In this document: one piece after another, positions 18,562 to 41,077 of the stretch
How positions within the stretch are numbered: the stretch's first letter is position 1
Layout: each line of letters starts with the position of its first letter
Assembly: GCA_041879355.1 (NCBI GenBank)
Contig: CP089922.1
Span: 462,172-526,171 of the forward strand
Direction of reading: 5' to 3'
From: Cyanobacteria bacterium LVE1205-1
GTDB taxonomy: Bacteria; Cyanobacteriota; Cyanobacteriia; CAIUCS01
DNA: 64,000 nucleotides
Translations under genes and position numbers: made by a program
The notes under the pieces: generated by a model
The model's database searches: none
The model's input: only the letters and a program-made list of their open reading frames with translations
Told to the model about the DNA's origin: nothing

Positions 18562-18634
18562 TGGAGGTTAGCGGACTCGAACCGCTGACATCCTGCTTGC
18601 AAAGCAGGCGCTCTACCAACTGAGCTAAACCCCC
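18562..18634 (-). tRNA. tRNA-Ala (anticodon TGC)
   Basis: Reverse complement folds as a 73-nt cloverleaf: acceptor GGGGGTT with G3:U70, D-arm AGCTCAGTTGGTAGAGC, anticodon loop TTTGCAA, T-arm GGTTCGAGTCC. Confidence 0.95.
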
Positions 18635-18804: not shown

Positions 18805-19554
18805 ATGGTTATCGTAGCCAGCTTTTACAAATTTTTCCCCTTTCCTGACTCCATTCACCTCAGATCCGCTTGGCTCGCTTACTGTCAGGTTCAACAGATT
18901 CGGGGTACCATCCTCATGGCTCCGGAGGGGATTAATGCCACTATTTCAGGAAGTCGTGATGCAATCAATCAGGTGCTTCAGTATATTTGCAGCCATCCCG
19001 GTTTAAGTACATTAAAGCATCAGGAAAGTGTTTGGAATGTTCATCCCTTTGATCAGTTAAAGGTTAAGTTTAAACAAGAAATTGTTACCTTAGGAATGCC
19101 CACAGTTGATCCTAGTCAAGGTACCGGTGAGTTTGTTCATCCTTCAGATTGGAATGCTATTTTGACTGATCCAACTGTCACCGTGGTTGATACTCGTAAT
19201 ATCCATGAAGTGGAAATGGGTACTTTTTTTGGGGCAATCAATCCACAAATGTTTTGTTTTCGTCAGTTTCCCTATTATGCTAAGCAACAGTTAATGCCGT
19301 TGCAGTCAAAAAAAGTTGCTATGTTTTGTACCGGAGGAATCCGATGTGAAAAAGCCTCGTCCTATTTATTAAAGGAAGGTTTTAAACAGGTGTATCAATT
19401 AGACGGTGGCATTATTCATTATTTACAAACAGTCTCAAAATCAGACAGTCTTTGGCACGGGGATTGTTTCGTTTTCGACCAGCGCAATCATCTTAATCTT
19501 GAGCATAGGTCAACTTGGTTTGGGGTAAGTAGCCTTCCAAATCTGGTTAACTGA
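18805..19554 (+). CDS. trhO: Rhodanese-domain protein, tRNA uridine(34) hydroxylase TrhO-like (UPF0176)
   Basis: N-terminal VASFYKF, rhodanese active-site CTGGIRCEK. Confidence 0.7.
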   Translation: MVIVASFYKFFPFPDSIHLRSAWLAYCQVQQIRGTILMAPEGINATISGSRDAINQVLQYICSHPGLSTLKHQESVWNVHPFDQLKVKFKQEIVTLGMPTVDPSQGTGEFVHPSDWNAILTDPTVTVVDTRNIHEVEMGTFFGAINPQMFCFRQFPYYAKQQLMPLQSKKVAMFCTGGIRCEKASSYLLKEGFKQVYQLDGGIIHYLQTVSKSDSLWHGDCFVFDQRNHLNLEHRSTWFGVSSLPNLVN

Positions 19555-19606
19555 CAAAAGTTGTACGCCCTCACCCCTAACCCCTCTCCCAGGGGGCGAG
19601 GGTGGA
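19546..19606. repeat. Repeat family B, truncated copy (left half of the element at 40930..41077)
   Basis: CTGACAAAAGTTGTACGCCCTCACCCCTAACCCCTCTCCCAGGGGGCGAGGG nearly identical to 40933..40984. Confidence 0.75.
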
Positions 19607-21721: not shown

Positions 21722-22287
21722 ATTTGAGAAGACCTCCGACTAGATTCAGTACAGTATTCAGTACAGTATTGACTGTGTGATTAACAAAAAAGAAGATGCT
21801 AGGTATACTTGCATCATTCCAGATAAAGCGCATTGTTATAGTTAACCTTAGAGATTGAGGCGACAAAAAAGTTTAAGTAGATTAACTTCATTATTTTCTA
21901 AAGTAATTTTGTAATGAGCGTGAACATTTACAATTTAATGGATAAGCCAAGTGTACGTAATTTAAAATTTAACAAATTATAACTTTCAAGTATTACATTT
22001 TAACTAATTCTCTCACGAATCATATCATTCACATCATCTAATTTACCATAGTTGGGAGTTCTTTAAAGAATCCGAACAAAATTATTCTCCATACTCAATC
22101 AGTCATTCATCTTGACGGAATAAACCACTTCTGACAAAGATGACCCATCGGAAATGCCCAGATTGGAGATCATCACACTCCTAGTGTTCTTCAATCCAGA
22201 TCGAACAAACCCTTTGATGAATTGCTGTTAACAGATAACCTAGGATCATCCAACGTATCTTAAAATACCGAACCCTCCTTCAATAAT

Positions 22288-23465
22288 TTATAAAACAGCG
22301 GCTATCCTATCAACCACGTGCTCTAGCACCTCTGGTTCATGTACCAAGGCAAACCGCACAAACCCCTCGCCAGATTTTCCAAACCCGGCACCTGGAGAAA
22401 CGGCAACCCCTGTATTTTCAACTAGATAGGTACAAAATTCCAGTGATCTGTTTTCCCACTTTGACGGCAGCTTTGCCCAAATATACATGGTGGCCTTCGG
22501 GATAGGAACTTGCCAGCCAATTCGACTTAATGCCTGGATAAAGGCATCCCGACGACGACGAAAAACTTCTGTGGATCGACCCACTCCCCCTTGAGGACCT
22601 GTTAAGGCAGCGATCGCCCCTTGTAAAATTCCTTGGTACTGGTTAAAGTCCACCATTGCTTTAATATTGCGTAAAGCCAAAATTAATTCACGATTTCCGA
22701 TGGCGTAACCCACTCGGAATCCACCCATGTTATAGGACTTAGATAAGCTAAAAAATTCAATCGAAACAGTTTTCTGGGGATCTGCCTGGAGAATCGATGG
22801 TGCAACCTGGGTTTGATGAACAGTAGGGTCAAAGATGAGATCGACATAGGGGAAATCATGGACAAGAGCTAAGTTGTGACGTTGACAAAACTCGACTGCA
22901 GATTGAAAAAAGCTAAGGGAAGCAATGGCAGTGGTGGGATTGTGGGGATAACTGAGTACCATCATGCGGGACTGCTCCAGAACCGCTATGGGAATTTCGG
23001 TAAAAACCGGCAAATAGCCGTTTTCTTCCCGTAACGTCATGGGATACATTTGACCGCCCGCCAGCAGAACCCCCCCATATGGGATGGATACCCCGGATCC
23101 GTTAACAGGGCAAAATCACCAGGATCTAGTAATGCAAGGGGTAGATGGGCTGTCCCTTCTTGGGAACCAATTAACGGTAATACTTCAGTTTCAGGATCTA
23201 CGGAAATCCCAAATTTTTGGGTATACCAATTTGCGGCGGCGGTTCGGAATGGGCGAGTTCCATGGAATAGCAGGTAACCATGGGTGCTAGCATCTGGCAG
23301 TGATTGGGCGATGGCATCCAGCACATGAGGCTCCACTGGTAAATCCGAGGAACCCAAGGATAAATCAATTACATCCAGTCCCCCAGCCTTCGCCCGCGCC
23401 TTAGCTTGATCCATATCGGCAAATACATTGGAGCGGAGGGGTGCTAAACGTTGGGCAAATTTCAT
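22288..23465 (-). CDS. PLP-dependent class I/II aminotransferase (AspC/DapL-like); frameshift at a 7-nt C/G run 23070..23076
   Basis: N-terminal ORF 23037..23465 and C-terminal ORF 22288..23049; reading across the homopolymer gives ...HMGG|VLLAGGQMYPMTLREENGYLPVF; SYPHNPT region present. Confidence 0.8.
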
Positions 23466-23508
23466 GGTGGTCGCAAGTGGGGTGGAATTGGTTACACAAA
23501 AATCTACA

Positions 23509-24362
23509 CTAAAATCCTAACGTTTCCGTTAAACCGGTTTCTAAAATAGTGTCTGAAAATTCATATAACGTTTTGTCAAAGATAGCTTTGAATATTGTCA
23601 CCGCCTGACCGGATACATAAATGCGTCCGTCCCCTTCCCTCACTCGCACAATTCCACCCCGGGCAGAAGCCTGATGGGCAACCAACTCTGACGTTCCCAG
23701 CCGACCAGCCCAGAATGGAGTCAGGCAGCAATGGGCAGCACCAGTCACCGGGTCCTCATTCACACCCAGAGATGGAGCAAAAAAACGGGACACAAAATCA
23801 AATCCTGGGGTAGAAGCGATGCTTGTCACAATAACCCCTTGGGGATGGAGTGGAGCCAGTAGACTAAAATTAGGCTGTAACTGCTTAACCATAGTCTCTG
23901 AATCAAGTTCAACCAGGTAGGCGAATGAACTTAATCCCACCCATCGGGGTTTAACCCCCAAAGCTGCCTCCAAACCATCTGGCACTGATACCGTCTGACA
24001 GGGAATGGGGGGAAATTAAGTTCGATCCAATCCCCATGCCGTTGGGCAGTTAACAATCCGCTACGGGTAAAGAAACGGGCGGTGGCAGTTGATGCCAAAT
24101 AACCTTCTGTCCATAAAACATGGGCACTTGCCAAGGTTGCATGACCACACAGGTCTACTTCGATTTTGGGAGTAAACCACCGTAAACTGAATCCATCTCC
24201 ATGGGGGAGTAAAAAAGCGGTTTCCGACAAATTCATTTCCCTAGCCACATGTTGCAGCCAGGCAGATGAACGCATTTCAGGCAAAATGCACACGGCGGCA
24301 GGATTTCCAGAAAAAGGGCGATTTGTAAATGCATCGACTTGGATTAACTGCCAATTCATCAT
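23509..24362 (-). CDS. PhzF-family (phenazine biosynthesis-like) isomerase; frameshift at G6 run near 24005
   Basis: N-terminus IQVDAFT...GNPAAV...ETAF typical of PhzF family; C-terminal half in second frame. Confidence 0.7.
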
Positions 24363-24392
24363 AGGGTCGGGGTGGTGGGTGAAAGGGTTTCT

Positions 24393-25040
24393 TTACCGAC
24401 GAGCAACAATCGTGCGGTGGCGGGGGCTATTCCCCACAACCGTGGGGGGCTGAAAACCAACGGAGTGGAGAGCCTGACTAAAATCCAATTTAAAGTACTC
24501 ATCTAAATAGGGTTCTGTACTTTTGAGAAGGGTTAAAATGTAAGGCTTCATCTGAGCATAGACGGGAGACTGGGGATTCATATCCATCATGGCAAAGTAA
24601 CCACCAGGACGAAGTAAGCGGTGAACCTCCCTCAGGATGGCGATGGCTGCTTCCTCTGGTAATTCATGAAACAGAAGAAACCCAGATACCAAATCAAAAG
24701 ACTGATCTGGCAACCCAGTTGCTTCGGCAGCAGCATGGAGCCAGGTGGGGGGTGAAACTGGATGGGAGTGGTATGGAACAGGGATGCGGGCTGGAGCTTG
24801 GTGCTGAGCAACGGATAAAAAGTAGGGGGATAGGTCAATACCCACCACCTCAGCCCTCGGATAATTGACCTGAAGTGCGGCAGTACTCATGCCAACACTA
24901 CAACCTAAATCAAGTATCTTCAATGGTGAGGAGATATGAGATTGAAGGATTTGATGATAACTTTGGCGTAACCGGGCATCTCCATGGGCATCAACTGCTC
25001 CCCAAACACGACTATGAACCGCATAGGCAGCTACTTCCAC
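24393..25040 (-). CDS. Class I SAM-dependent methyltransferase (N-terminus may extend to about 25231)
   Basis: ILDLGCSVGMSTAAL motif I, LLRPGGYFAMMD; GTG start; upstream region open in two frames. Confidence 0.65.
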   Translation of the reverse strand: MEVAAYAVHSRVWGAVDAHGDARLRQSYHQILQSHISSPLKILDLGCSVGMSTAALQVNYPRAEVVGIDLSPYFLSVAQHQAPARIPVPYHSHPVSPPTWLHAAAEATGLPDQSFDLVSGFLLFHELPEEAAIAILREVHRLLRPGGYFAMMDMNPQSPVYAQMKPYILTLLKSTEPYLDEYFKLDFSQALHSVGFQPPTVVGNSPRHRTIVARR

Positions 25041-25340
25041 TTCAAAAGCTGCTTCCCAAGATAAGTTTCCATCTGCATAACCATGGAAAGAAGTGACATA
25101 ATAATCGGGGTAGGATAAACCCGGAGTGGTAACCTGGCTGAGAATCCAAGGACCAATCTCGTGTATTTAAGAGTGCCACATGCCCTACCCAATCCACCCC
25201 AATTTGATAGGCTCGCTGGATCATCATTTGTTTAGCTTTGGTTTTCGCCCAGTTAGCAAGGGATGGGAAAGACAGGATTCTGTTTACGATGGAACTGGTA
25301 AAACCAATGGCTGGGGGAATGGGAATAGAAGATAAAAAAA

Positions 25341-26246
25341 TCATAATTCCAGCTTTTGTAACAAGGAGCGGGTGGATACAATATGTCGATGTAAGCCCAA
25401 CTGTTGGGGTGGGATCCCCAATGCCAGTCCAACTAATTGGGGCAGGTGTAAAATCGGCAACCCCAGTTTTTGTCCAGTCACTTGTTCCACTTCCGGTTGA
25501 CGAGAATCTAAGTTCAAATGACAAAGGGGACAGGGGGTAACAATACAATCAGCCCCATGGGCGATCGCTTCCTGTATATGTCCCCCTGCCAACTTAAAAG
25601 ATGATTCGGTGGCATAACTGGCAATTGGCCAGCCACAACATTGGGTTCGTCCCGAATAGTAGATTGGGGTTGCTCCCACTGCTCGAAATAGATTTTCCAT
25701 TGATTCTGGTTGAAATGGATCATCCAAGGGCAGATGTTTTTGTGCACGCAGTAAGTAGCAACCATAAAAAGCCGCACACCTCAAGCCAACCAAAGACTTG
25801 GTAATTTTTTCCTGAATTGCCTCCAACCCATAATCACCGACCAGAACCCATAATAAATGAGTCACGGTGGTAGTACCGTGATAAGGGCTGCATTGTTCTT
25901 TCCGGAGTAACCCATTAACGCGCTGGAAATAATCAGGATGATTAATTTTGGCATCCTTCAGCCGATCATCCACTTGCCCGATAACCCCTTGACAGGTACT
26001 GCAATGGGTTAAAAGCGGTAGTTTCAATTCTTCTGCCAAAGAAATATTACGGGCATTGACAGTGTCTTCTAAAAGCTGAGAGTCTTCCTTGAATGTTCCC
26101 GAACCGCAACAAGCGGCCTGCTTTAGTTCTATCAGTTCAATGCCTAGGGCTTTACTTAAGGATTGGGTGGATTGGTGTAACTCCCGACAAGCACCCTGGG
26201 CAACACAGCCGGGATAGTAAGCATATTTTAGAGGGGAGGTGGGCAT
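25341..26246 (-). CDS. CCG-domain cysteine-rich protein, heterodisulfide reductase subunit B-like
   Basis: Two cysteine-rich CCG-type segments (YPGCVAQGAC...CCGSG; FYGCYLL...CCGWP...PCPLCH). Confidence 0.7.
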   Translation of the reverse strand: MPTSPLKYAYYPGCVAQGACRELHQSTQSLSKALGIELIELKQAACCGSGTFKEDSQLLEDTVNARNISLAEELKLPLLTHCSTCQGVIGQVDDRLKDAKINHPDYFQRVNGLLRKEQCSPYHGTTTVTHLLWVLVGDYGLEAIQEKITKSLVGLRCAAFYGCYLLRAQKHLPLDDPFQPESMENLFRAVGATPIYYSGRTQCCGWPIASYATESSFKLAGGHIQEAIAHGADCIVTPCPLCHLNLDSRQPEVEQVTGQKLGLPILHLPQLVGLALGIPPQQLGLHRHIVSTRSLLQKLEL

Positions 26247-26605
26247 GAATGGAGAAGAGAGAAGGGATAAATGATGGTTTCATCCTGGATTAGGATTAGT
26301 TTATGAATGAACGAACCATCCCAATTAGTTTGGGTAGTCCTGAACCAGTAAGAATAGGAATTGGTTGGGGGCTTCGCCCTCCTATAGGGCAACGCCTTTA
26401 CCACACCGTTTCAATTTTTACCTTTTTATTGCCACCCTGCTTTGAATTAGATTTTTACTTTAATATTAACCACAAACCCGATGGTTTTTGAACGAAATCT
26501 GAAAAACAAGACCGATAGACCGATAATTTAGTCTCATATCCTCCTGACGCTGATCCTTTGGGGTTGAGTCTGGACATCATCCCATCCCTTGTTAGTTAAG
26601 TTTAG

Positions 26606-28220
26606 GTGATTACAGTGACATTCAATCTTAGAACCATAGCAACGATAAAGCGGTTATTGGGTGAACATCCCTTTGCCTGGGCATGGGTGGGATTAATTAT
26701 CCTTTCCATCATCGGTTGTCAATCTGGTGTTACCACCAATCCTCGTTTTTCCCCAAGTTCAGGACAAATTATTCTTGGAACGACAGCTCGAATTCGTACC
26801 CTTGATCCCGCTGATGCCTATGAAATTTTTTCTGGCACGGTTTTATATAATCTGGGCGATCGCCTCTACATAGCCGACCCTGAAACCGGAAACCTAGTTC
26901 CCCAACTAGCAATGACCATGCCTGTCATTAGTAATGACGGACTCACCTATACTATTCCTTTACGTCAAGGAGTTGTATTTCACAATGGCAGCCCCTTTGA
27001 TGCCAACGCCATGGTCTTTTCCCTGCAACGGTTTATCTCCAATGAAGGTAGTCCCTCTTTTTTGCTGGGCGATGTGGTGAAGTCTATTGTTGCCACGGGT
27101 GACTATGAGTTAACCATTACCTTAAAACAACCCTTTGCAGCTTTTCCATCCCTATTGACCGTACCCGGGATGTGTGCCGTTGCCCCCAATGTATATAAAA
27201 TTGGGGCTGGACAATTTAACCCAGATAGTTTTGTGGGCACTGGTCCCTATCAATTAGTTCAATCCAGTCCCGACTCCCTCAAAATGGAGCGCTTTGAGCA
27301 ATATTGGGGGGAGCGAGCCGCCAATCCTGGTGTTAGTATTCAGTTTTTTACCAGTGGTGCCAATTTGTTCAATGGGTTTCGCTCCGGTTCCGTTGATGTG
27401 GCGTATCAAACCCTGGATGTGGATCAGATTCTTGCATTGCAGCGGGATGGTCAATCCCGGGGTTGGCAAATGATAGAAGGACCTGGTAATGGGATTCATT
27501 ATTTGAGTCTCAACTTACAACAACCACCCCTTGATAACCCCCTGGTTCGCAAAGCAATTGCAGCACTGATTGATCGACCGCTGTTACAAGACCGGGTCTT
27601 TCGTGGTCAGGTGGAGCCCCTGTATAGCCTCATCCCTTCCACCGTCACTGGGAGTAGACCCGTCTTTCAATCTCCCTATGGAGATGGTAATGCCCAAAAA
27701 GCGAAAGCTTGGTTACTTGAAGCAGGATATTCTTCTGCCAACCCGCTTCGGGTTGAGTTATGGTATCGTTCTAATTTGACAAATAATGTTATTGCTGCCC
27801 AAACCCTACAGGCTTCTATCCATCAAAAACTTGGAGATTTGATTACTTTGGAACTACAAGGTGTAGAGTCGGCAACTGCCTATCAGAATCTGGATAAGGG
27901 AGTATATCCAGATGATCATGCTAGATTGGAGTCCTGATTTTTTGGATGCTGATAACTACCTGCAACCATTTTTGGATTGCAGCCAAGGTAAGGCACCCAA
28001 CCAATGCGAATCGGGGGCAAGTAAATTACAGGGTTCATTTTATTTTAGCGATCGCGCCAATCAATTAATCAGTCAATCGCGCCAAACCAATAATGAGAGT
28101 ATGCGGCTAACCCTACTCAACCAACTACAAACCCTGGTGGCAGAGGACATTCCCTTCATTCCCCTTTGGCAAAATAAGGAATTTTTATTTATCCAGGATA
28201 GGATTGAGGGGGCAAGTTAG
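26606..28220 (+). CDS. ABC transporter substrate-binding lipoprotein, family 5 (peptide/nickel type); frameshift at T6 run near 27935
   Basis: Signal peptide with lipobox IIGC; C-terminal 102-aa ORF continues in another frame. Confidence 0.7.
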
Positions 28221-28573
28221 GAAAAACCCAGAAATTAAACTTTGGTCGATTAAAGAAACAACTTTAGGAGGGAGTGATTCATTCGATCTAACGAATTGAC
28301 ACCCCTCATCTCTCCCCGACTTTTTCTTAAGACGCAATACATTCGGTCAAAAAGTAATATCTCGGTCATTTAATGTGTGCTTTTGATGCATTTCATGTCC
28401 TATAATTAAAGATCTTTCACTAGAGAAAAATATGCCTTAAAATTTATCAAGGGCTGGAAACATTTCTCAAGTCAAACCTAAAATAAATACTGGTCGTTTA
28501 TGTACCCGATCAGTATGTTGTCTAACTTAAAACTTCAATTAACCTAACGGAGATCGTACAGGAATCACCCAGC

Positions 28574-29602
28574 ATGATAACTCAGGACACCCCTATTGAT
28601 ATTGGCTTTACTCGCGAGGATTTCGCCGCATTACTCGATAAATATGACTACCATTTCAGTCCTGGTGACATTGTCGCTGGGACTGTATTCAGTTTGGAGC
28701 CTAAGGGTGCCCTGATTGACATTGGTGCTAAAACTGCCGCCTATATTCCCATCCAGGAAATGTCCATTAATCGTGTCGATAATCCTGAGGAAGTTTTACA
28801 GTCCAATGAAACCAGAGAATTTTTTATTCTCACTGAGGAAAATGATGATGGACAATTGACCCTGTCAATTCGACGAATTGAGTATATGCGAGCTTGGGAA
28901 AGGGTTCGTCAACTCCAAGCTGAAGATGCTACGGTGCGCTCCGCTGTTTTTGCAACGAATCGTGGCGGAGCCTTAGTGAGAATAGAAGGGCTCCGGGGTT
29001 TTATTCCTGGTTCTCACATTAGTACTCGCAAGCCAAAAGAAGATTTAATGGGTGAAGACCTCCCACTGAAATTTCTAGAAGTGGATGAGGATCGAAATCG
29101 TTTGGTTTTAAGCCATCGACGGGCGTTAGTCGAACGGAAGATGAACCGACTGGAAGTGGGTGAAGTATTATTGGGTACGGTACGGGGTATTAAGCCCTAT
29201 GGAGCATTCATTGATATTGGCGGTGTGAGTGGTCTTTTACATATTTCAGAAATCTCCCATGACCATATCGATACCCCCAGCAGCGTTTTCAATGTCAATG
29301 ATGAACTGAAAGTCATGATTATTGATTTGGATGCTGAACGGGGACGCATCTCCCTGTCTACAAAACAACTGGAACCGGAACCTGGTGCGATGGTTAAAAA
29401 CCCAGGACTGGTCTATGATAAGGCAGATGAAATGGCAGCTAAATATCGAGAACAGATGCGTGTTAAGTTGGAAGGTATTCCACCTTTATCTATTTCATTG
29501 GAACCTGTGGTTCTGGAAGAAGACCTCCCCCAGCCGTTGAAGACGTTGAGTAAATCAAATCTAATTAAACGCAATCCGCTTACATTTCTCCCTAGGGTGT
29601 AG
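28574..29602 (+). CDS. rpsA: 30S ribosomal protein S1
   Basis: 342 aa with repeated S1 domains (GDIVAGTV..., GEVLLGTVRGIKPYGAFIDIGG...). Confidence 0.85.
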   Translation: MITQDTPIDIGFTREDFAALLDKYDYHFSPGDIVAGTVFSLEPKGALIDIGAKTAAYIPIQEMSINRVDNPEEVLQSNETREFFILTEENDDGQLTLSIRRIEYMRAWERVRQLQAEDATVRSAVFATNRGGALVRIEGLRGFIPGSHISTRKPKEDLMGEDLPLKFLEVDEDRNRLVLSHRRALVERKMNRLEVGEVLLGTVRGIKPYGAFIDIGGVSGLLHISEISHDHIDTPSSVFNVNDELKVMIIDLDAERGRISLSTKQLEPEPGAMVKNPGLVYDKADEMAAKYREQMRVKLEGIPPLSISLEPVVLEEDLPQPLKTLSKSNLIKRNPLTFLPRV

Positions 29603-29927
29603 CCCACTTTCCCTAGGGTTGAGTCCCAAAGCCCTTGAAGTCCATCTCCAGTGTAGAGGGGGACTTCATAAGGCTATTTGATAAATTCTATAGAATGGTC
29701 TAGTTTCTAAGGTTACATTACTTTTCATTTTTGTTACCCTTGTTCTAGACATATTCATTGGGGTGCATCTTGCCTTTCCATCTCTCACCCTAAATCCAGC
29801 TCCGACTCCCCCACTTTGGAAGAAGGGGTTGGGGGATGAGGGCAAATTTACAAAACGGGGATATACTCTATTCAATCTTGCTTCACGTGATCTACTGACA
29901 AATATCACAGTGAAAAAACAACCCATT

Positions 29928-30821
29928 ATGCGTCACGCCATTCTCATAGTATCTCTCATTCCCAGCCTCTGCTTCCTTGGTTGTGCCAACGAACCTAAAC
30001 TTGAGAGTTCCTCACTTGCTCCCACCACTGTCACCCAATCTGTAATTGAACCAGAGGGTAAACAGGCGAATACAAAGACAGACCTGCCCGGTGTTCAACT
30101 AAATCTGGTAAAAAAAGCTCAACTAACCCTTGTAATAGAGAATATGGATCAGACGATCCAGGCAATTACCAGATTAATTCGTACTCGACAGGGTGATATT
30201 CTCAACTTGGAAAAACTGTATCCCACCGAACCAGGAAGCCGTCAAACTGCTTCTTTGAGTATCCGCATTCCCCAGCAACAATTGGATGACGTTTTAACTC
30301 AATTGACCAAACTAGGGGTGGTACGGCAGCAATCTCAAACCGCAGAAGATGTCTCGAGTCAGTTAGTGGATTTTAAGGCACGATTACGGAACTTGCGTCG
30401 TTCCGAAGAGATGCTATTGCAAATTATGGGGAGATCGGGTTCGGTGGGGGATGTGTTAAAGGTTAGCCAAGAACTGAGTGGGGTTAGGGAAAGTATTGAG
30501 CAAATTGATGGGCAGTTAACCAATTTGCAATCTCAGGTGACCTACTCCACGATTACGATTGCATTAGAGCAACAGACCATAACAACCCCCTTCCAAAAAC
30601 ATCCTGGTGGCATCTTAGTTGAAAGTTGGACAACTGCCACCCGTTCAGTGGTGGACTTTACCTTAGGATTAGCGCAACTGACCCTCTGGATTCTTGCATA
30701 TAGTCCCTATCTTCTTATAACGGGGGGTGGAGTATATTGGATAAAAACCCGTTATCTTCCCCGGCTCAAGGAAAAAAGTCCATCATCAGTCCACCACTCC
30801 CAATCCAAAGGGAAGCTATGA
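29928..30821 (+). CDS. DUF4349-like lipoprotein with C-terminal transmembrane segment
   Basis: Start at internal Met giving lipoprotein signal ...SLCFLGC; coiled-coil central region; hydrophobic C-terminus. Confidence 0.45.
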   Translation: MRHAILIVSLIPSLCFLGCANEPKLESSSLAPTTVTQSVIEPEGKQANTKTDLPGVQLNLVKKAQLTLVIENMDQTIQAITRLIRTRQGDILNLEKLYPTEPGSRQTASLSIRIPQQQLDDVLTQLTKLGVVRQQSQTAEDVSSQLVDFKARLRNLRRSEEMLLQIMGRSGSVGDVLKVSQELSGVRESIEQIDGQLTNLQSQVTYSTITIALEQQTITTPFQKHPGGILVESWTTATRSVVDFTLGLAQLTLWILAYSPYLLITGGGVYWIKTRYLPRLKEKSPSSVHHSQSKGKL

Positions 30822-30912
30822 ATGGGTATTCTTTTTCATTTGACACAAACTAGTTTACAGTGTCCTCCCCGACATCAAAACATTAGACCCTCAGTCTTTA
30901 GACCTGAGAGTC

Positions 30913-31458
30913 TCATTTACGTTCCATACTTTCTAAATATTCTTTATACCCTAGGCTTTCCAGATCAACCTGTTTTTCCATCACTTTACTAGTTAGCTCA
31001 TGGCGATAACATTGCACCTTCACTAATAGGTCTGGTTGATGGGATGCTAAAATCTGTATTGCAAGCAGTCCAGCATTATGAGCATTACCAATGGCTACGG
31101 TAGCCACTGGAATACCATTAGGCATTTGGACAATGGAATATAACGAATCAACCCCCTGCAAATAACGGGTAGGTATGGGCACGCCAATTACAGGTAAAGG
31201 AGTTAGGGCAGCCACCATGCCTGGTAAATGAGCAGCACCTCCCGCACCGGCAATAATCACCTTTAAGCCTCGACGGTGGGCATTTTGGGCATAGGAAACC
31301 ATACGGTCAGGGGTACGATGGGCTGAAATAATAGCCACTTCAGTGGGCACTGCAAATCTTTCACACACAACAATAGCCGCTTCCATCGTGGGTAGGTCGG
31401 AATCACTACCCATAATGATGCCAATCGATGGTTCTGGGAGAGATGTCATGGATGACAT
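30913..31458 (-). CDS. purE: N5-carboxyaminoimidazole ribonucleotide mutase PurE
   Basis: [41 protein letters not shown]. Confidence 0.9.
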
Positions 31459-31505
31459 AATGAGTCCATAGAATTAATCGAACCAAAAACCGCCCTTAAT
31501 CTGAG

Positions 31506-31949
31506 TTAACCACGATTTTTGATTAACATTACTTCAATGATTTGAGATGCCAATTCATCGGAGATATTGAGTAAAGTCGCCAACTTTGCTAAAAAAGCCT
31601 CTTCTTCCTCTGTTTCAATACTATCAGCTAACACTAGGTCAGCCGCAATGGCAAATGCAGTTGTCTTTAAGTCTGAAGAGATTACCGTTGTTGATTGTAG
31701 GAGGGAATCAACCCCTTCATTTCTCAAAATATTCAATAATTTATCAAACAACTTACGCATTGATTCATCTGATGCAGTTTGAAATAACTTCATCCGTGAC
31801 AAGGAAGAAGACATGGCTTTTGTCTCTTCAGCCGATAAATAACCATCGGAAGCAATTGCAGCTAATGCAATGGAAGCGATCGCCTCAGCCTCTGGGTTGA
31901 TTTCATCCTTGATATCCCCTTGTAAACCAAACGCTTGTAGTAATCCCAT
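31506..31949 (-). CDS. TerB-like (tellurite resistance family) protein
   Basis: 147 aa, acidic helical protein with two TerB-like repeats (AIAS/ADxxL, EE..FL..LA..L.IS). Confidence 0.45.
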   Translation of the reverse strand: MGLLQAFGLQGDIKDEINPEAEAIASIALAAIASDGYLSAEETKAMSSSLSRMKLFQTASDESMRKLFDKLLNILRNEGVDSLLQSTTVISSDLKTTAFAIAADLVLADSIETEEEEAFLAKLATLLNISDELASQIIEVMLIKNRG

Positions 31950-32031
31950 GGGTAAAACTCCTCAATCAAATGCTAAACCCTGGTGGAAGGAAATACCCCA
32001 AGGGATACTGCCCCACACCAGAGAAACCCCA

Positions 32032-32670
32032 TCAAAGCAAATACAAGATCAAAAATAAAACAATCCAGATCACATCCACAAAATGCCAGTACAATTCTGC
32101 CACTTCAATACCAAAGTGATGATCTGGGGAATAATGCCCCGGCTTAAATGAACGCCACAGAACCGCTAACATGGCACCAATCCCCAAACAAACATGTAAG
32201 CCATGGAAGCCCGTGAGAACATAAAAAGTACTGGTAAATACATTATCCTTTAGCCCAAAGCCGGTGTGATTATACTCATAGAGTTGACCAAACAGGAATA
32301 TAATACCCATGACAATGGTTAACAGGAACCAGAACTGCATTCCCTTCACGTTATTTTTTTTAATTGCTGTATCCGCATTATGGATTACAAAGCTACTGGA
32401 AACCAGAATTAAAGTATTGATACCAGGCAAAAGCAGTTCTAATTCCGGAGTACCCGCAGGAGGCCATTCCGGAGCCACCACCCGAAATGCACCATAGGCA
32501 ACAAATAGCCCCAAAAAAATCATGCCTTCGGCAATTAAAAAAATAATCAGACCAAACATGCGGTGATCGGGATGGGCTTCACCATGACCATGAATTGGTT
32601 CATGGGTAGGGATCAGTAGTTGGGAATCAATGGCAGGAGTTTGCATAGGACAAGGAGGGATTGGGAACAC
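32032..32670 (-). CDS. ctaE: Cytochrome c oxidase subunit III
   Basis: 212 aa; heme-copper oxidase subunit III pattern, conserved TGFHGLHV. Confidence 0.85.
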   Translation of the reverse strand: MFPIPPCPMQTPAIDSQLLIPTHEPIHGHGEAHPDHRMFGLIIFLIAEGMIFLGLFVAYGAFRVVAPEWPPAGTPELELLLPGINTLILVSSSFVIHNADTAIKKNNVKGMQFWFLLTIVMGIIFLFGQLYEYNHTGFGLKDNVFTSTFYVLTGFHGLHVCLGIGAMLAVLWRSFKPGHYSPDHHFGIEVAELYWHFVDVIWIVLFLILYLL

Positions 32671-32709
32671 CGTTTATAAAAAATCAGAATCATGGAGGGA
32701 ATCTACACC

Positions 32710-34378
32710 TCATCGCCAAAGGTCGGCTGCCTTAACCTGGGACATAGGACGTTTACCGGGGTTATAGTCTTTACCATAGTCATAGGGGTCAGGAACAAAG
32801 GGAGGCTCACCCAAATAATTTTCAATTGGCGGCGGAGAAAGGGTTTGCCATTCAGGAGAAATTGCATTCCAAGGGTTTGCTCCAGCCTTAGGACCCCTTA
32901 CCCAACTGTATACTGCATTAATAACAAATGGAATTGTTGAAACTGCCAAAAGGTAAGCACCAATGGAACAAATTAGATTAATTGCGGCAAATTGGGGGTC
33001 ATACTCCGCCACTCGACGAGGCATTCCAGCCAATCCCACCTTGTGCATTGGTAAAAAGCACAGGTTAAAACCAACTAAGGTTAAAACAAAATGCACCTTG
33101 CCCCACGTTTCATTGATCATACGACCCGTCATCTTGGGAAACCAGTGATAAATAGCTGCATAGAGACCAAAAACACTCCCCCAAAGAGGACGTAATGTAA
33201 ATGGGCAACTACGAAATAAGTATCATGGACATGAATATCAAAGGGAGCAGAGGCTAACATCACCCCACTTAATCCGCCAATGACAAACATGGAAACAAAT
33301 CCCATGGCAAATAACATCCCACTGTTAAGCCTCAGTTTGCCTCCCCACACCGTAGCCACCCAACTAAAGACTTTAATACCTGTGGGAACCGCAATCACCA
33401 TGGTGGCAACCATAAAAAACATTCGTAACCAACCGGGTACGCCGCTGGTAAACATATGATGAGCCCAAACGATTAAACCCAAGAAGCTAATTGCCAGACT
33501 GGAATAGGCGATCGCCTGATAGCCAAAAATTGGTTTTCGAGCATGAACGGGTAAGATTTCAGAGACCAACCCAAAAACTGGCAGAATCATAATGTATACC
33601 GCCGGGTGGGAGTAAAACCAGAACATATGTTGGTAAACAATTGGATCCCACCACCGGTTGGATTGAAAAAAGAAGTACCACCGATCAGGTCAAAGCATAG
33701 AAGGATTAGGGCTCCTGCTAAAACAGGAGTGGAAATCAGTACCAATGCAGAAGAGGATAACATTGCCCAACAAAAGAGGGGCATATTATTCAACCCAATT
33801 CCGGGTCTTCGCATCAGTAGAAGAGTGGTAATAAAGTTGACAGCTCCCAAAATGGAAGAAGTACCCAAAATTAATAAACTAAGAATCCAAATTAACTCTC
33901 CCCATTTACCATTCATGAGACTTAGAGGAGGATAGGATGTCCACCCAGATGCCGGGGCACCGACCAAAAAACTAGACATTAGTAAAATGCCACCAGGAGG
34001 AATTAACCAGAAGGCAATGGCATTTAAGCGGGGGAAAGCCATATCCCGTGCCCCAATCATTAATGGAAGGAGAAAATTACCAAACGCACCATTTGCCGCC
34101 GGTACAATCCATAGAAAGATCATGACCGTAGCATGCATGGTAAACAAACTATTGTATAGTTCACGGCTGACAAAATCCACTTCAGGGGTGGATAATTCCT
34201 TCCGAACTGCTGTAGCTAAAGCTCCACCAACGAGGTAGAACAAAAAAGATGTCACCAGATATTGAATACCAATCACCTTGTGGTCAGTATTGAATGTAAA
34301 GTAATCCCACCATTTTCGTTCCGTTAGCTCTGGAGATGGATTAACAGGGAGAATTCCGTCCAACTGGGCTGTAATCAT
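32710..34378 (-). CDS. ctaD: Cytochrome c oxidase subunit I; split into three ORFs by two apparent frameshifts
   Basis: ORFs 33587..34378, 33129..33626, 32710..33132 give a contiguous ~556-aa subunit I with His ligand regions (WAHHMF, HDTYFVVAHLHY). Confidence 0.9.
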
Positions 34379-34420
34379 AAAAAAGAGTCACTAAATTACT
34401 TAGATAACAAACAATCAATC

Positions 34421-35521
34421 TTAACCATCGTGATGGGGGTGGACTTGAGCCAGAGTCAGTTCTGAGATACCCATTTCAGCCAGACGGGGGGCTAAACGGG
34501 TCTCCTCACTTTGGCTCTGCCCTGCAGAGGCAATGGTGGGGTGATCAGATGGAGTGCTATCCGCTAACTGTTGTTGCACCCAAGCATCATAATCAGACTG
34601 GGGTTCAATGATTACTTGGGAACGCATGGCACCGTGGAATGAACCACACAGTTCGGCGCATACAATGGGATAGGTACCAATTACAGTTGGCTTAAACCAC
34701 AATTCAGTCTCTCGCCCGGGAATCGCATCCTGTTTCAGACGGAACTGGGGAACCCAAAAAGCATGGAGTACATCCATCGCCTTAATTTTCAGTTGCACAT
34801 CCTGTCCCACGGGGAGATGGAGTTCACCACTGGTGATACCACTGTCCGGATAGTTAAAAATCCAAGCATATTGCAACCCAGTTACATCCACAGTGACCCC
34901 AGTTCCTTTTACATTGGCAGGGGCGGTAAAGCCAATGGTTGCCAATCTAGGTTCAGTTGGAGATGTCTGGTTCGTTGAATTTAAGGGGGCGGCGATGGCT
35001 GCTCCCTTCATGGAATGATGGTGAGCCTGCATTGCTATCTGCTCTAGTCCACCGATGGAGTTATATACTTCAAAACTATAAACGGACAAACCTAATACAA
35101 TAATGGCGGGAATGCCTGTCCAAAGGATTTCTAGGGGTAAATTTTCCTTCCAGGGGGGACCATCTGTTTCATCATCCTTAGGTTTACGAAACTTAAACAG
35201 GGCAAAAATTAACGCCCCTTGTACCAAAAGAAACAACCCAACGGAAAGGGTAATCATGGTGTCAAACAGCCCATCAATTAAGGGGGCGTTGACTGAAGCA
35301 GCAACCGGTAATAATCCATGGTGTTGTCCCACCCAGAAACTGATGAGGGTGATTAAAACGCCCACTATTAATGTTGCAATATTGGTTGGAATATTCACAA
35401 TTAACCTTTCGATAGAGGATAAATTAGAGTTCGCTTGCGACAATACACATGGGACAAATGGGGACTGGGAAGGAATTGACCATTTCACCGGATACCATGA
35501 CTGACAAGTTCGTTCCATCAA
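34421..35521 (-). CDS. ctaC: Cytochrome c oxidase subunit II (start probably internal)
   Basis: CuA centre HAFWVPQF...CAELCGSFHGAM; transmembrane N-terminus. Confidence 0.85.
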   Translation of the reverse strand: MMERTCQSWYPVKWSIPSQSPFVPCVLSQANSNLSSIERLIVNIPTNIATLIVGVLITLISFWVGQHHGLLPVAASVNAPLIDGLFDTMITLSVGLFLLVQGALIFALFKFRKPKDDETDGPPWKENLPLEILWTGIPAIIVLGLSVYSFEVYNSIGGLEQIAMQAHHHSMKGAAIAAPLNSTNQTSPTEPRLATIGFTAPANVKGTGVTVDVTGLQYAWIFNYPDSGITSGELHLPVGQDVQLKIKAMDVLHAFWVPQFRLKQDAIPGRETELWFKPTVIGTYPIVCAELCGSFHGAMRSQVIIEPQSDYDAWVQQQLADSTPSDHPTIASAGQSQSEETRLAPRLAEMGISELTLAQVHPHHDG

Positions 35522-35816
35522 GGTTGTTGACTGGTGCTGTTAATTTTATCCCCGTACCTTAAAATAATCAAACTAAAATCGAATTCAATAAAATTGATAC
35601 GGTTCTCCATTGGTAATTGATTTAATTTAATCTATGTTCCTACGTTAAAACGACTTTTCGGAATCGGCTTAACTTTAAGTCCATCTTTAAGGTTTTTTTC
35701 GGGATCGCTTCATTGATGGGTGAATTAATCCTCAATTTCTTACCACCTGAACTGGGGAATTCTTCCCGTAGGTCATGGCTGCTACTAGGGACATGCCATA
35801 CTCGTCACCCCAAACC

Positions 35817-36770
35817 CTATCCCTCCAGCTTCACTGCCAGACGTAGTTTGGCAGACCGTGAACGGGGATTATGCTCCCATTCATGGGCAGATGCTATGAT
35901 GGGTTTCTTGGTCACGGGCTGCAACCAGGAAGAAGTCCGAAACCCTTGTTTAACGATTCGGTCTTCAAGGCTATGGAAACTTATGATACCAATTCGTCCC
36001 CCTGATTTTAGCCAAGCGGGCGCATGGGATACAAACCATTCTAAAACGAATAATTCTTGATTGACTGCAATGCGAAGTGCCTGGAAAACACGGGTTGCGG
36101 GATGAATACGACCATAACGGTAGGCATGGGGAACACAATGGGCGATGGCATCAGCCAGAGCAGTTGTGGTGTATAGGGGACGTAATCTAACAATTTGCCG
36201 AGCAATTCGTCGGGACAGTCGTTCTTCCCCATAGGTAAAAAATAAATCTGCCAAATCCTTTTCCGACCATTGGTTGATAATATCAGCAGCAGTATGGGAA
36301 TGTCGCCGATCCATCCGCATATCTAGCAACCCCTCGTGGCGAAAACTAAATCCACGCTCTGCTTGATCTAATTGGGCAGAACTGACCCCCAAGTCAGCCA
36401 TAATGCCGTCAAAACCATTCTTGCCCTCCGTCCCTGTCCATAGGGAACCATGAATGTCGGGACAATATTCACTGAAATTACCCAACCAATATTGGACTCG
36501 CTCACCATAGGGAGATAAGCGTTGCCTGGCGGCAGCAATTGCTGAACTATCCTGGTCAATTGCCACAACCCGAATATCAGGATAGCGTTCCAACAACAAT
36601 TGGCTGTGCCCACCACCACCCACAGTTGCATCCAGATAGATCCCGTGAGGTTGGGTATTTAAACCCGTCACCAATTCTTGAGTTAACACTGGAATATGAT
36701 GGAAATCAGACACGGAATCATCACCAGTTTGCAAAAAAATCACATATTTTTCCCTAGGCGTTGGCGCCAA
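35817..36770 (-). CDS. rsmH: 16S rRNA (cytosine1402-N4)-methyltransferase RsmH
   Basis: HIPVL near N-terminus, [13 protein letters not shown]-binding motif, [10 protein letters not shown]. Confidence 0.9.
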
Positions 36771-38471: not shown

Positions 38472-40029
38472 TTAAAAGACTGGGGATTCTAGAGGCTCTA
38501 TTTCTTCATCCGTTTGTATCCTTGGCGGCGGAAAGTCTAGGGATCGTCCATAAATATCAGTGAAATACCGCAGGCGATGGCAAATTTCCTCACATTCTAC
38601 TGCCTCCGTGCGATATCGCCAATCCCAATTACCAGTGGCAGTCCCAGGGGTATTCATGCGTGCATCTGTCCCCAGTCCTAAAATGTCTTGAAATGGGAAT
38701 AAAGCCCAGTTGGCTACAGAACTCATGGCGTGACGGATCAAATCCCAATGAATACCATCGAAATTATTGTAACCTAAATAACTGCGGATATGGCGTTGTA
38801 AATCGTCGGATCGACTGTAAAACCAGCCCACAGTGGTGTCGTTATCATGGGTGCCTGTATAGACAATGGAGTTTTTCCGATACTGAAAGGTCAGATAGGG
38901 ATTTCGGGCATCTGAATCGAAGGCAAACTGCAAAATATTCATGCCGGGGAAATCAAAGCGATCGCGCAGGGCTTCCACCTCCGGGGTAATCACCCCTAAA
39001 TCTTCAGCCATAATGGGCAGGGAGCCTAGTTTTTGGGCTAAGGTTGTAAACAATTCCTCCCGGGAGCCTGCACCCATTCTCCATTTATAGCAGTGGTTTC
39101 CCCCTTTGGAACTGCCCAATAGGATTCAAAGCCACGAAAATGATCCACCCGGATCACATCTACAATCTCTAACATGGATTTAAACCGCTGTACCCACCAC
39201 TTAAATTGATTTTTTTTCAGATGCCTCCAGTTATAAACTGGATTGCCCCACAACTGTCCCGTTTTGCTGAAGTAATCAGGGGGAACACCTGCCATCAGCG
39301 CCACTTCTCCCGTTTTTTCATCCAAGTGAAAGTTTTCTGGATTTGCCCACACATCTGCACTATCGTGGGCTACATAAATGGGGATATCCCCAATAATGGT
39401 AATGCTTCGGTCATTGGCATAGGTTTTTAAGGCATTCCATTGACAATGGAATTGATATTGCAAAAATTGGTGATAAAAAATCTCATCAGTAAATTGTTTG
39501 CGGTATAAGGCTAAGGTTTCGGGTTTACGCTGCCGTAGATTTGGATCCCATTGATACCAGCTTTGATTAGGGTGAGCATACTTACACGCCATAAATAGGG
39601 CATAATCATCCAGCCAACTGGATTGATGGATGCAAAATTGTTCAAACTGTTTTTGAATTGCTGGGGTTGCCTGTTGCCGGAATCGGGCACATGCTAACCG
39701 AAATAACCCATCCTTAAAGGCAATCACCCCATCAAAATCAATATGATCCAGCGGAAAGTCAGGACTATTTGCCAGTTCAGATTTATCCAGCCATCCCTGC
39801 TCTTCCAATAATTCAGGACTAATGAGTAGGTGGTTACCGGCAAAGACGGAATAGGAAAGGTAGGGGAATTACCATATCCCGTAGGTCCTATGGGCAGGAT
39901 TTGCCAATAATGTTGATGACTGGACATCAAAAAATCAATGAACCGATAGGCAGATGAACCAAAATCTCCAATTCCATATGGACTGGGGAATGAACTGGGA
40001 TGGAGTAAAATTCCACTACCTCTGGGCAT
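38472..40029 (-). CDS. malQ: 4-alpha-glucanotransferase (disproportionating enzyme, GH77); split into three ORFs by apparent frameshifts
   Basis: ORFs 39724..40029 (GILLHPSS...GIGDFG), 39038..39808 (IIGDIPIYVAHDSADVW, VDHFRGF), 38472..39119 (EDLGVITPEV) are colinear. Confidence 0.85.
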
Positions 40030-40891: not shown

Positions 40892-40929
40892 AGATTGCAC
40901 GAAATCGTTGCTAATACCTGTGAACCTGG

Positions 40930-41077
40930 TTGACTGACAAAAGTTGTACGCCCTCACCCCCAACCCCTCTCCCAGGGGGCGAGGGGAGCCGATCCACCCC
41001 TCCCGGTTCCCTCTCCCATCGGGAGAGGGCTAGGGTGAGGGCTTTCGGGGTTTTGGCTGAGAAGTTTTGTCAGTCAA
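40930..41077. mobile_element. MITE-like element (repeat family B, full copy) with terminal inverted repeats
   Basis: TTGACTGACAAAAG at left, TTTTGTCAGTCAA at right; internal palindromes CCCTCTCCCAGGGGGCGAGGG and CCCTCTCCCATCGGGAGAGGG; left half repeated at 19546..19606. Confidence 0.7.

What the first reader, a model, noticed from the sequence alone, without database searches (positions are those of the whole stretch)
22288..26246. Four co-directional genes: aminotransferase, PhzF-like isomerase, SAM methyltransferase, CCG-domain Fe-S protein
All four are on the minus strand with 30-300 bp spacers, consistent with one operon. The combination is not a textbook pathway and could be a small tailoring or biosynthetic module. 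The methyltransferase N-terminus is unresolved: 25042..25340 is open in two frames.
Basis: inference. Interest (0 to 1): 0.4.

Follow-up and report, generated by a model that had tools for sequence, protein, structure and literature searches.

The report
Four adjacent ordinary genes, assembly frameshifts
Four unrelated, ordinary cyanobacterial genes lie head to tail only in this one species, and the breaks in three of them are almost certainly single-base sequencing errors, so this is not a new pathway.

Summary
The four co-directional minus-strand genes exist at 22288-26246. They are a two-CCG-domain Fe-S protein (probable orthologue of Synechocystis slr0201, the putative SdhC; inferred), a class I SAM methyltransferase, a PhzF-family protein, and a class I/II aminotransferase of NCBIfam family NF005613.

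Three of the four are broken by one-base indels, at about 25144, 24013 and 23077.

These breaks are assembly errors:
- Two conspecific metagenome contigs (L001 and L086, 97.6-98.4% identical) carry all four genes intact (301, 314/316, 284 and 392 aa).
- A second assembly of essentially the same genome (L171) differs from the window by 1 substitution and 5 one-base indels in 20.9 kb. Four of those five are in C/G runs.
- After correction, no gene has an internal stop.

The methyltransferase starts at 25344, in an ATGA overlap with the CCG gene's stop. The other spacers are 30 and 43 bp, so one transcript is plausible.

The arrangement is species-specific. None of 80 CCG loci from other cyanobacterial species has PhzF or the aminotransferase nearby, and only one has the methyltransferase, 6.5 kb away on the opposite strand. 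None of 50 methyltransferase loci of 6 kb or more from other organisms, and none of 3 PhzF loci, has the partner genes.

A biosynthetic module is therefore not supported. Interest is low.

The parts
25341..26246 (-). Intact 301-aa protein with two CCG (cysteine-rich) domains; probable orthologue of Synechocystis slr0201, the putative SdhC of a type E succinate dehydrogenase
   Evidence: Pfam PF02754 at 8.6e-31 with two stretches. NCBIfam best hits are MFR_anch_SdhE at 223 bits and HdrB TIGR03288 at 201 bits, both below their cut-offs. Relatives are 75-80% identical across cyanobacteria, and JGI names them SDH cytochrome b subunit. The slr0201 knockout phenotype is described in bioRxiv 10.1101/2021.09.27.461999.
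24393..25344 (-). Class I SAM-dependent methyltransferase, 316 aa once corrected. Its ATG at 25344-25342 overlaps the CCG stop codon (ATGA).
   Evidence: Pfam Methyltransf_11/25/12/23. The N-terminal frame reads MIFLSS... and matches homologues. Intact 314- and 316-aa versions occur in L001 and L086. The corrected translation has no internal stop and is 96.5% identical to L001.
25144..25144 (-). One-base insertion (extra T, GGATTCTC versus GGA-TCTC) that shifts the methyltransferase frame; assembly error
   Evidence: Specific to the window; absent from L001 and L086.
24769..24774 (-). 6-bp in-frame indel polymorphism in the methyltransferase (a real strain difference)
   Evidence: Present in the window and L086, absent from L001.
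23509..24362 (-). PhzF-family protein, 284 aa once corrected, split here into two ORFs
   Evidence: Pfam PF02567 matches both halves, profile positions 1-129 and 158-280. The intact form scores 129 bits on TIGR00654, above the 76-bit cut-off. The nearest solved structures are 1s7j and 4dun; their PDB entries name them only as PhzF-family proteins.
24013..24013 (-). One-base deletion at a T/C homopolymer junction (TTT-CCCCCC) that breaks the PhzF gene; assembly error
   Evidence: Specific to the window; L001 has C7 and L086 has T4C6.
22288..23465 (-). Class I/II PLP aminotransferase of NCBIfam family NF005613 (named LL-diaminopimelate aminotransferase), 392 aa once corrected, split here into two ORFs
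   Evidence: The fragments score 437.9 and 234.7 bits on NF005613. The intact orthologue scores 701 bits against a 486-bit cut-off. The PLP-lysine motif SLSKSYNMGGFRVGY is present.
23077..23077 (-). One-base deletion next to a G7 run that breaks the aminotransferase; assembly error
   Evidence: L001 has TT+G7, L086 has G8, the window has G7, and L171 (the same genome) has G6.
26247..26605 (.). 359-bp divergent intergenic region between the CCG gene and the SBP_bac_5 gene; the likely promoter region for the four genes (inferred)
   Evidence: It is the only sizeable non-coding stretch upstream of the cluster. The consensus scan found no strong sigma-70-like site on the minus strand.
21722..22287 (.). 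AT-rich (32-35% GC) spacer after the aminotransferase. It holds a weak terminator-like hairpin at 22317-22298 and a strain-level synteny breakpoint at about 22260.
   Evidence: Composition. Hairpin. Homology with L001 ends at 22260, while L086 and L171 continue as in the window.

Best explanation
This is a lineage-specific juxtaposition of four functionally unrelated genes, each from an already described protein family. Only the probable slr0201 orthologue has a proposed cellular role. They are probably transcribed together from the divergent intergenic region upstream of the CCG gene.

The genes:
- A CCG-domain protein that is probably the orthologue of slr0201, the putative SdhC subunit of succinate dehydrogenase (inferred).
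- A core cyanobacterial SAM methyltransferase of unknown substrate.
- A patchily distributed PhzF-family protein, presumed to be an isomerase or epimerase from its family, with unknown substrate.
- An NF005613-type PLP aminotransferase.

All four genes are intact in the organism. The three frame disruptions in this window, and the 'two open frames' at the methyltransferase 5' end, are single-base consensus errors of a probably long-read metagenome assembly.

What is shown: the gene identities, the indel positions, the intact copies in conspecific assemblies, and the lack of conserved gene order. What is inferred: co-transcription and the biochemical roles.
For: Errors:
- L171 matches window 15340-36246 with 1 substitution and 5 one-base indels; four of the five are in C/G runs.
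- The SBP_bac_5 gene is broken in the window but whole in L171. The aminotransferase has additional breaks in L171.
- Between 22260 and 29728, every one-base indel inside a gene is specific to the window. L001 and L086 agree with each other and are in frame. Indels in intergenic DNA are spread over all three sequences.
- Five of the 8 coding one-base indels lie in G/C runs of 4 or more bases, which make up only 4% of the DNA.
- pN/pS on the window branch is 0.17, against 0.11 and 0.14 on the other two branches.
- After three one-base corrections there are no internal stops.
- coxA (twice), the rps1 C-terminus and malQ are also broken.

No module:
- Of 80 CCG loci from other cyanobacterial species, none has PhzF or the aminotransferase within 10 kb. 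One has the methyltransferase, 6.5 kb away on the other strand.
- CCG relatives at 85% and 81% identity lack the downstream genes, although the 85% contig ends about 380 bp after the CCG gene.
- Of 51 methyltransferase loci of 6 kb or more, only the conspecific one carries the partner genes.
- Three PhzF loci have no aminotransferase orthologue.
- The conserved neighbours of CCG elsewhere are acpP, fabF and tkt. The commonest methyltransferase neighbours elsewhere (each in under 35% of loci) look, by inspection of their sequences, like an aminopeptidase and a QueD-like protein; no family search was run on them.

Operon: ATGA overlap, 30- and 43-bp spacers, and no promoter-like or terminator-like site in the spacers.
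Against: - For the three broken genes taken alone, the window branch shows 5 synonymous and 8 non-synonymous changes. That ratio is higher than on the other branches, but the counts are small, and random substitution errors in the consensus would give the same pattern.
- Two of the coding indels (27911 and 25144) are not in long homopolymers.
- The cluster is kept in at least three conspecific strains even though one flank is rearranged. That is compatible with selection for the linkage, but equally with recent common ancestry.
- Co-transcription was not measured.
Confidence: 0.85

Rival explanations
1. A lineage-specific but genuine functional module. The aminotransferase, PhzF-like isomerase and methyltransferase would act in sequence on one small molecule, with the CCG protein as redox partner.
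For: Tight packing on one strand, with a 4-bp overlap and 30- and 43-bp spacers. The block is retained in three conspecific strains while the downstream flank differs. The PhzF gene is patchily distributed, which is typical of accessory genes.
Against: - No pair of the four genes is adjacent in any other sampled organism.
- The CCG protein and the methyltransferase are core cyanobacterial genes with their own, different, conserved neighbourhoods.
- The CCG family already has a proposed role in succinate dehydrogenase.
- The strains that share the block are only 2-3% diverged, so its retention carries little weight.
Confidence: 0.08
2. The frameshifts are real, so the methyltransferase, PhzF and aminotransferase genes are recent pseudogenes in a strain undergoing gene decay.
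For: Three of four genes are disrupted in the window. The same three positions are also disrupted in L171 (25144 and 24013 identically, 23077 with a different run length). The three genes have slightly more non-synonymous than synonymous changes on the window branch, 8 against 5.
Against: - Two assemblies with only 1 substitution in 20.9 kb disagree at 5 homopolymer lengths, including inside the aminotransferase and SBP genes.
- The same kind of break hits coxA twice and rps1.
- There are no nonsense substitutions.
- Overall pN/pS is 0.17.
- Both other metagenome assemblies of the species (L001, L086) have every gene intact.
Confidence: 0.04
3. Programmed ribosomal frameshifting or transcriptional slippage at the homopolymer runs produces the full-length proteins.
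For: Two of the three breaks in the cluster sit at or beside C or G runs.
Against: Conspecific strains encode the same proteins in a single frame. The run lengths differ between assemblies of the same genome. One break (25144) is not at a slippery run.
Confidence: 0.01

Closest known systems
Synechocystis sp. PCC 6803 Slr0201 (putative SdhC) and the CCG-domain anchor subunits of type E succinate:quinone oxidoreductases (SdhE, Campylobacter/Wolinella MfrE); more distantly HdrB
   Same: 301 aa, the length reported for slr0201. Two CCG cysteine motifs. Best NCBIfam hits are MFR_anch_SdhE and HdrB. The family is conserved at 75-80% identity across cyanobacteria. Deletion of slr0201 gives a phenotype like an sdhB deletion.
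   Different: It scores below the curated cut-offs of both MfrE/SdhE (223 against 500 bits) and HdrB (201 against 345 bits), so it forms a separate cyanobacterial clade. Here it has lost the usual divergent acpP-fabF-tkt neighbours and gained a downstream methyltransferase. I did not have the slr0201 sequence, so orthology is inferred from length, names and conservation.
PhzF-family proteins of unknown function (PDB 1s7j, 4dun), compared with true PhzF (trans-2,3-dihydro-3-hydroxyanthranilate isomerase, 1u1v)
   Same: PF02567 fold family. E = 1e-53 to 1s7j and 2e-50 to 4dun over the whole length. The SETAF motif is present; I recall it carries the family's catalytic glutamate, but I did not check this by alignment.
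   Different: The match to authentic PhzF is only E = 2e-14, and there are no phenazine genes nearby. The protein has a C-terminal tail of about 22 aa that relatives lack. Its substrate is unknown.
NCBIfam NF005613 (PRK07366) aminotransferases, named LL-diaminopimelate aminotransferase
   Same: The intact orthologue scores 701 bits against a 486-bit cut-off over the full length. The PLP-lysine motif is present.
   Different: It is not the plant/cyanobacterial DapL type: TIGR03542 scores 92 bits (C-terminal fragment) against a 365-bit cut-off. The family name is an annotation, not an assay, and no lysine-pathway genes lie nearby.
UbiE/MenG-like class I SAM methyltransferases
   Same: Rossmann-type SAM-binding domain with Pfam Methyltransf_11/25 matches. 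JGI annotates relatives as a UbiE-type C-methylase.
   Different: TIGR01934 scores 45 bits against a 158-bit cut-off, so it is not MenG or UbiE. It has a conserved N-terminal extension of about 120 aa with an invariant YP.YY..SFH.Y..G.L.W motif, found only in this cyanobacterial family. No close solved structure exists; the best match is E = 8e-8.

Membership tests
Conserved operon or biosynthetic gene cluster | The same genes are adjacent in other, phylogenetically separated genomes | tested here: not met
   None of 80 CCG loci has PhzF or the aminotransferase, and only 1 has the methyltransferase, on the other strand. Of 51 methyltransferase loci, only the conspecific one has the partners. 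None of 3 PhzF loci has the aminotransferase. The 81% CCG relative lacks the cluster; the 85% relative's contig ends about 380 bp after the CCG gene, which shows only that the ATGA-overlapping methyltransferase is absent.
Conserved operon or biosynthetic gene cluster | Co-directional genes with short spacers and no internal terminator | tested here: met
   Spacers of -4, 30 and 43 bp. No terminator-like site lies in a spacer; the one at 25881-25862 is inside the CCG coding sequence and within chance expectation.
Type E succinate:quinone oxidoreductase CCG subunit (SdhE, MfrE, Slr0201) | Two CCG cysteine-rich domains | tested here: met
   PF02754 matches in two stretches. All the cysteines are invariant in a 14-sequence alignment.
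Type E succinate:quinone oxidoreductase CCG subunit (SdhE, MfrE, Slr0201) | Score above the curated cut-off of NF042965 (MFR_anch_SdhE) | tested here: not met
   223.4 bits against a cut-off of 500.
Type E succinate:quinone oxidoreductase CCG subunit (SdhE, MfrE, Slr0201) | Physical or genetic association with SdhA and SdhB, and succinate dehydrogenase activity | not testable with these tools
   The only evidence is the published slr0201 knockout. The cyanobacterial sdhA and sdhB genes are dispersed in the genome (my own knowledge).
CoB-CoM heterodisulfide reductase subunit B (HdrB) | Score above the TIGR03288 cut-off | tested here: not met
   201.3 bits against 345.15.
PhzF, the phenazine biosynthesis isomerase | PF02567 domain and a score above the TIGR00654 subfamily cut-off | tested here: met
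   The intact orthologue scores 129.1 bits against 76.2. Both window fragments match PF02567.
PhzF, the phenazine biosynthesis isomerase | Located in a phzA-G operon and close to authentic PhzF | tested here: not met
   Its neighbours are a methyltransferase and an aminotransferase. E = 2e-14 to 1u1v, against 1e-53 to the uncharacterised 1s7j.
NF005613 aminotransferase (named LL-diaminopimelate aminotransferase) | Full-length score above the curated cut-off | tested here: met
   701.2 bits against 486 for the intact conspecific orthologue, which is 98.7% identical to the corrected window protein.
NF005613 aminotransferase (named LL-diaminopimelate aminotransferase) | LL-diaminopimelate aminotransferase activity | not testable with these tools
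   The name comes from family annotation only. The plant/DapL-type model TIGR03542 is not met: 91.8 bits against 364.7.
UbiE/MenG quinone C-methyltransferase | Score above the TIGR01934 cut-off | tested here: not met
   45.1 bits against 158.35.
Pseudogene | The disruption is reproducible in independent data from the same organism, with relaxed constraint | tested here: not met
   Homopolymer lengths differ between two assemblies of the same genome. Conspecific strains have the genes intact. pN/pS is 0.17 and there are no nonsense codons.

The most novel reading that the evidence does not exclude
In this lineage, the translational coupling (ATGA overlap) of the putative SdhC with the core cyanobacterial UbiE-like methyltransferase might reflect a functional link to the plastoquinone pool. 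The methyltransferase might then be the plastoquinone C-methyltransferase that a 2025 study says is still missing in cyanobacteria (PMC12998194).

The evidence does not exclude this but gives it almost no support. The adjacency occurs in one species only. The methyltransferase's conserved neighbours elsewhere are unrelated to quinones.
Probability: 0.03. Interest if true: 0.6.

Novelty: already known. Interest (0 to 1): 0.08.

Why it matters
It matters mainly as a quality flag. This window comes from an assembly with about one single-base homopolymer error per 1.5-2 kb of coding sequence. Any 'split gene', 'pseudogene' or 'two open frames' observation in this window should therefore be assumed to be an artefact until checked against accurate reads.

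Biologically, the locus shows only that a cyanobacterial lineage moved its slr0201-type gene away from the widespread acpP-fabF-tkt neighbourhood and next to three unrelated genes. No new pathway or mechanism is implied.

Tried and rejected
- **Conserved gene order, anchored on the CCG gene.** I scanned one genome per species and kept 80 loci with 10-kb flanks. No conservation was found.
- **Conserved gene order, anchored on the methyltransferase.** A metagenome scan gave 80 loci. None had the partner genes apart from the conspecific contig.
- **Conserved gene order, anchored on PhzF.** Three contexts were examined. An aminotransferase lies next to the 73%-identical PhzF in L167, but it is not an orthologue; only a 30-aa match was found.
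- **Real pseudogenes.** Rejected by the comparison with L171 and with the conspecific contigs.
- **Programmed frameshifting.** Rejected for the same reason.
- **The methyltransferase as MenG or UbiE.** Rejected by the NCBIfam cut-offs.
- **A quinone link for the methyltransferase from its neighbours in other cyanobacteria.** Nothing quinone-related was found.
- **Consensus promoter and terminator scan.** It found no more sites than expected by chance and was uninformative.
- **RNA features.** Rfam and tRNA scans found only one tRNA-Ala at 18562-18634, outside the cluster.
- **Not done.** I did not retrieve the slr0201 sequence itself.
Full report
**What is there**

ORF listing and profile searches show four gene loci on the minus strand between 22288 and 26246.
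- A 301-aa protein with two CCG cysteine-rich domains lies at 25341-26246.
- A class I SAM methyltransferase has its catalytic part at 24393-25040.
- A PhzF-family protein is split into two ORFs, 23931-24362 and 23509-23985. These match profile positions 1-129 and 158-280 of PF02567.
- A class I/II aminotransferase is split into 23037-23465 and 22288-23049. These match positions 1-133 and 140-387 of NCBIfam NF005613.

So three of the four genes are interrupted, not only the methyltransferase. The methyltransferase N-terminus is encoded from an ATG at 25344 that overlaps the CCG stop codon (ATGA). It runs in a different frame to a stop at 25042. The catalytic frame is open only from about 25163 downwards. 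The statement '25042..25340 is open in two frames' therefore holds only for the last 120 bases or so. The true spacers are -4, 30 and 43 bp.

**The breaks are assembly errors**

A 99%-identical CCG protein led to metagenome contigs of the same species. Two further contigs were then recovered.
- L001 and L002 come from lake metagenomes and are 98.1% identical to window 22260-36238.
- L086 is 97.6% identical and has the same downstream neighbours as the window.

In all of them the four genes are whole: 301, 314 or 316, 284 and 392 aa, with the same ATGA overlap.

A three-way alignment shows that every one-base indel inside a gene is private to the window, at 29532, 28213, 27911, 25144, 24013 and 23077. 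Indels in intergenic DNA are spread over all three sequences. Over the 14 kb shared with L001 there are 8 coding one-base indels. They also break coxA twice. Five of the 8 lie in G/C runs of at least 4 bases, which make up 4% of the sequence.

The decisive comparison is with L171, a piece of a 2.48-Mb metagenome contig. It matches window 15340-36246 with a single substitution but five one-base indels, four of them in C or G runs. The SBP_bac_5 gene is broken in the window and whole in L171. The G run in the aminotransferase is G7 in the window, G6 in L171, and G8 or TT+G7 in the conspecific strains. Two renderings of essentially one genome that disagree almost only in homopolymer length point to consensus error, not biology.

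Other results agree with this. The window-branch pN/pS over six genes is 0.17, like the other branches at 0.11 and 0.14. After three one-base corrections, all four genes translate without an internal stop and are 96.5-99.3% identical to L001. For the three broken genes alone the counts are small (5 synonymous, 8 non-synonymous) and do not change the conclusion.

**What the genes are**

- *CCG protein.* It belongs to a family that is 75-80% identical across cyanobacteria. Sources annotate it as an HdrB family protein or as the SDH cytochrome b subunit. Its best NCBIfam hits are the MfrE/SdhE anchor (223 bits) and HdrB (201 bits), both below cut-off. A preprint reports that deleting the 301-aa Synechocystis homologue slr0201 gives a phenotype like an sdhB deletion, and proposes it as SdhC. 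Orthology to slr0201 is my inference from length and conservation.
- *Aminotransferase.* It passes the curated NF005613 cut-off, 701 against 486 bits for the intact orthologue. It is not the DapL type (TIGR03542).
- *PhzF-family protein.* It is closest to the structures 1s7j and 4dun, whose PDB entries give no specific function, and is far from authentic PhzF. Its relatives at 60-66% identity are scattered over Chloroflexota, Acidobacteriota and Archaea.
- *Methyltransferase.* It is a core cyanobacterial protein, about 60% identical across the phylum including Gloeobacterales. It has a conserved 120-aa N-terminal extension and no curated name.

**Is it a module?**

I tested gene-order conservation from three anchors.
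- *CCG anchor.* Of 80 loci from other cyanobacterial species, 64 have at least 3.2 kb downstream. None carries a PhzF or aminotransferase relative. One carries the methyltransferase, 6.5 kb away on the opposite strand.
- *Close CCG relatives.* The relative at 81% identity lacks the downstream genes. The contig of the 85% relative ends about 380 bp after the CCG gene, so it shows only that no methyltransferase overlaps the CCG stop there.
- *Methyltransferase anchor.* Of 51 loci of at least 6 kb, only the conspecific contig has the partners.
- *PhzF anchor.* Three loci have no orthologous aminotransferase.

Elsewhere the CCG gene sits divergently beside acpP, fabF and tkt in about 70% of species. 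It rarely has a same-strand gene directly after it, in 6 of 74 loci. The commonest neighbours of the methyltransferase (each in under 35% of loci) look, from their sequences, like an aminopeptidase and a QueD-like protein, among others.

The arrangement is thus confined to one species. Within that species the overlap and short spacers make a single transcript likely. The consensus scan shows no promoter-like or terminator-like site in the spacers, but that scan found no more than chance overall.

**Verdict**

These are ordinary genes from four described families (three with no assigned substrate), juxtaposed in one lineage and probably co-transcribed, with three artefactual frameshifts.

The only reading with any novelty is that the SdhC-methyltransferase coupling hints at a plastoquinone role for the unnamed methyltransferase. 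A 2025 paper notes that the cyanobacterial plastoquinone C-methyltransferase is still missing. The comparative data give this no support, and I put it at about 3%.

Noticed in passing
window 27911, 28213, 29532, 33183, 33650; 38472-39808: The same single-base error signature breaks other genes. SBP_bac_5 is broken twice, the rps1 C-terminus is altered (342 aa here against 326 aa), coxA is in three pieces, and malQ (Glyco_hydro_77) is split into at least two ORFs.
   Followed up: partly
L003-L082 (CCG loci of other cyanobacteria): The slr0201-like CCG gene is divergently linked to acpP (41 of 57 loci), fabF (42 of 57) and tkt (38 of 57). It is usually not followed by a same-strand gene (6 of 74 loci). 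The window species has lost this linkage.
   Followed up: partly
window ~22260: A strain-level synteny breakpoint lies 28 bp after the aminotransferase stop. L001 and L002 continue into a GAF-PAS histidine kinase and phycobilisome linker genes. The window, L086 and L171 continue into an RRM protein and a nucleoside transporter.
   Followed up: partly
window 19543-19602 and 40926-40985: A 60-bp dispersed direct repeat, 96.7% identical, C-rich with a GGGGGCGAGGG end. One copy lies between the UPF0176/rhodanese gene and the nucleoside transporter gene. It may be a small mobile or structural repeat.
   Followed up: no
window 24393-25344; alignment A2: The methyltransferase family is conserved across cyanobacteria, including Gloeobacterales, at about 60% identity. 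It has an invariant N-terminal motif (YP.YY..SFH.Y..G.L.W..A.EVE.AA) and a KSTEPYLD motif, and no assigned function.
   Followed up: partly
window 23509-23590: The PhzF-family protein carries a C-terminal tail of about 22 aa (..KAIFDKTLYEFSDTILETGLTETLGF). Relatives of 262-265 aa lack it; database hits cover only 89-91% of the query.
   Followed up: no
window 24769-24774: A 6-bp in-frame indel polymorphism in a variable loop of the methyltransferase. It is present in the window and L086 and absent from L001. It shows what genuine indel variation in this species looks like, namely in frame.
   Followed up: yes
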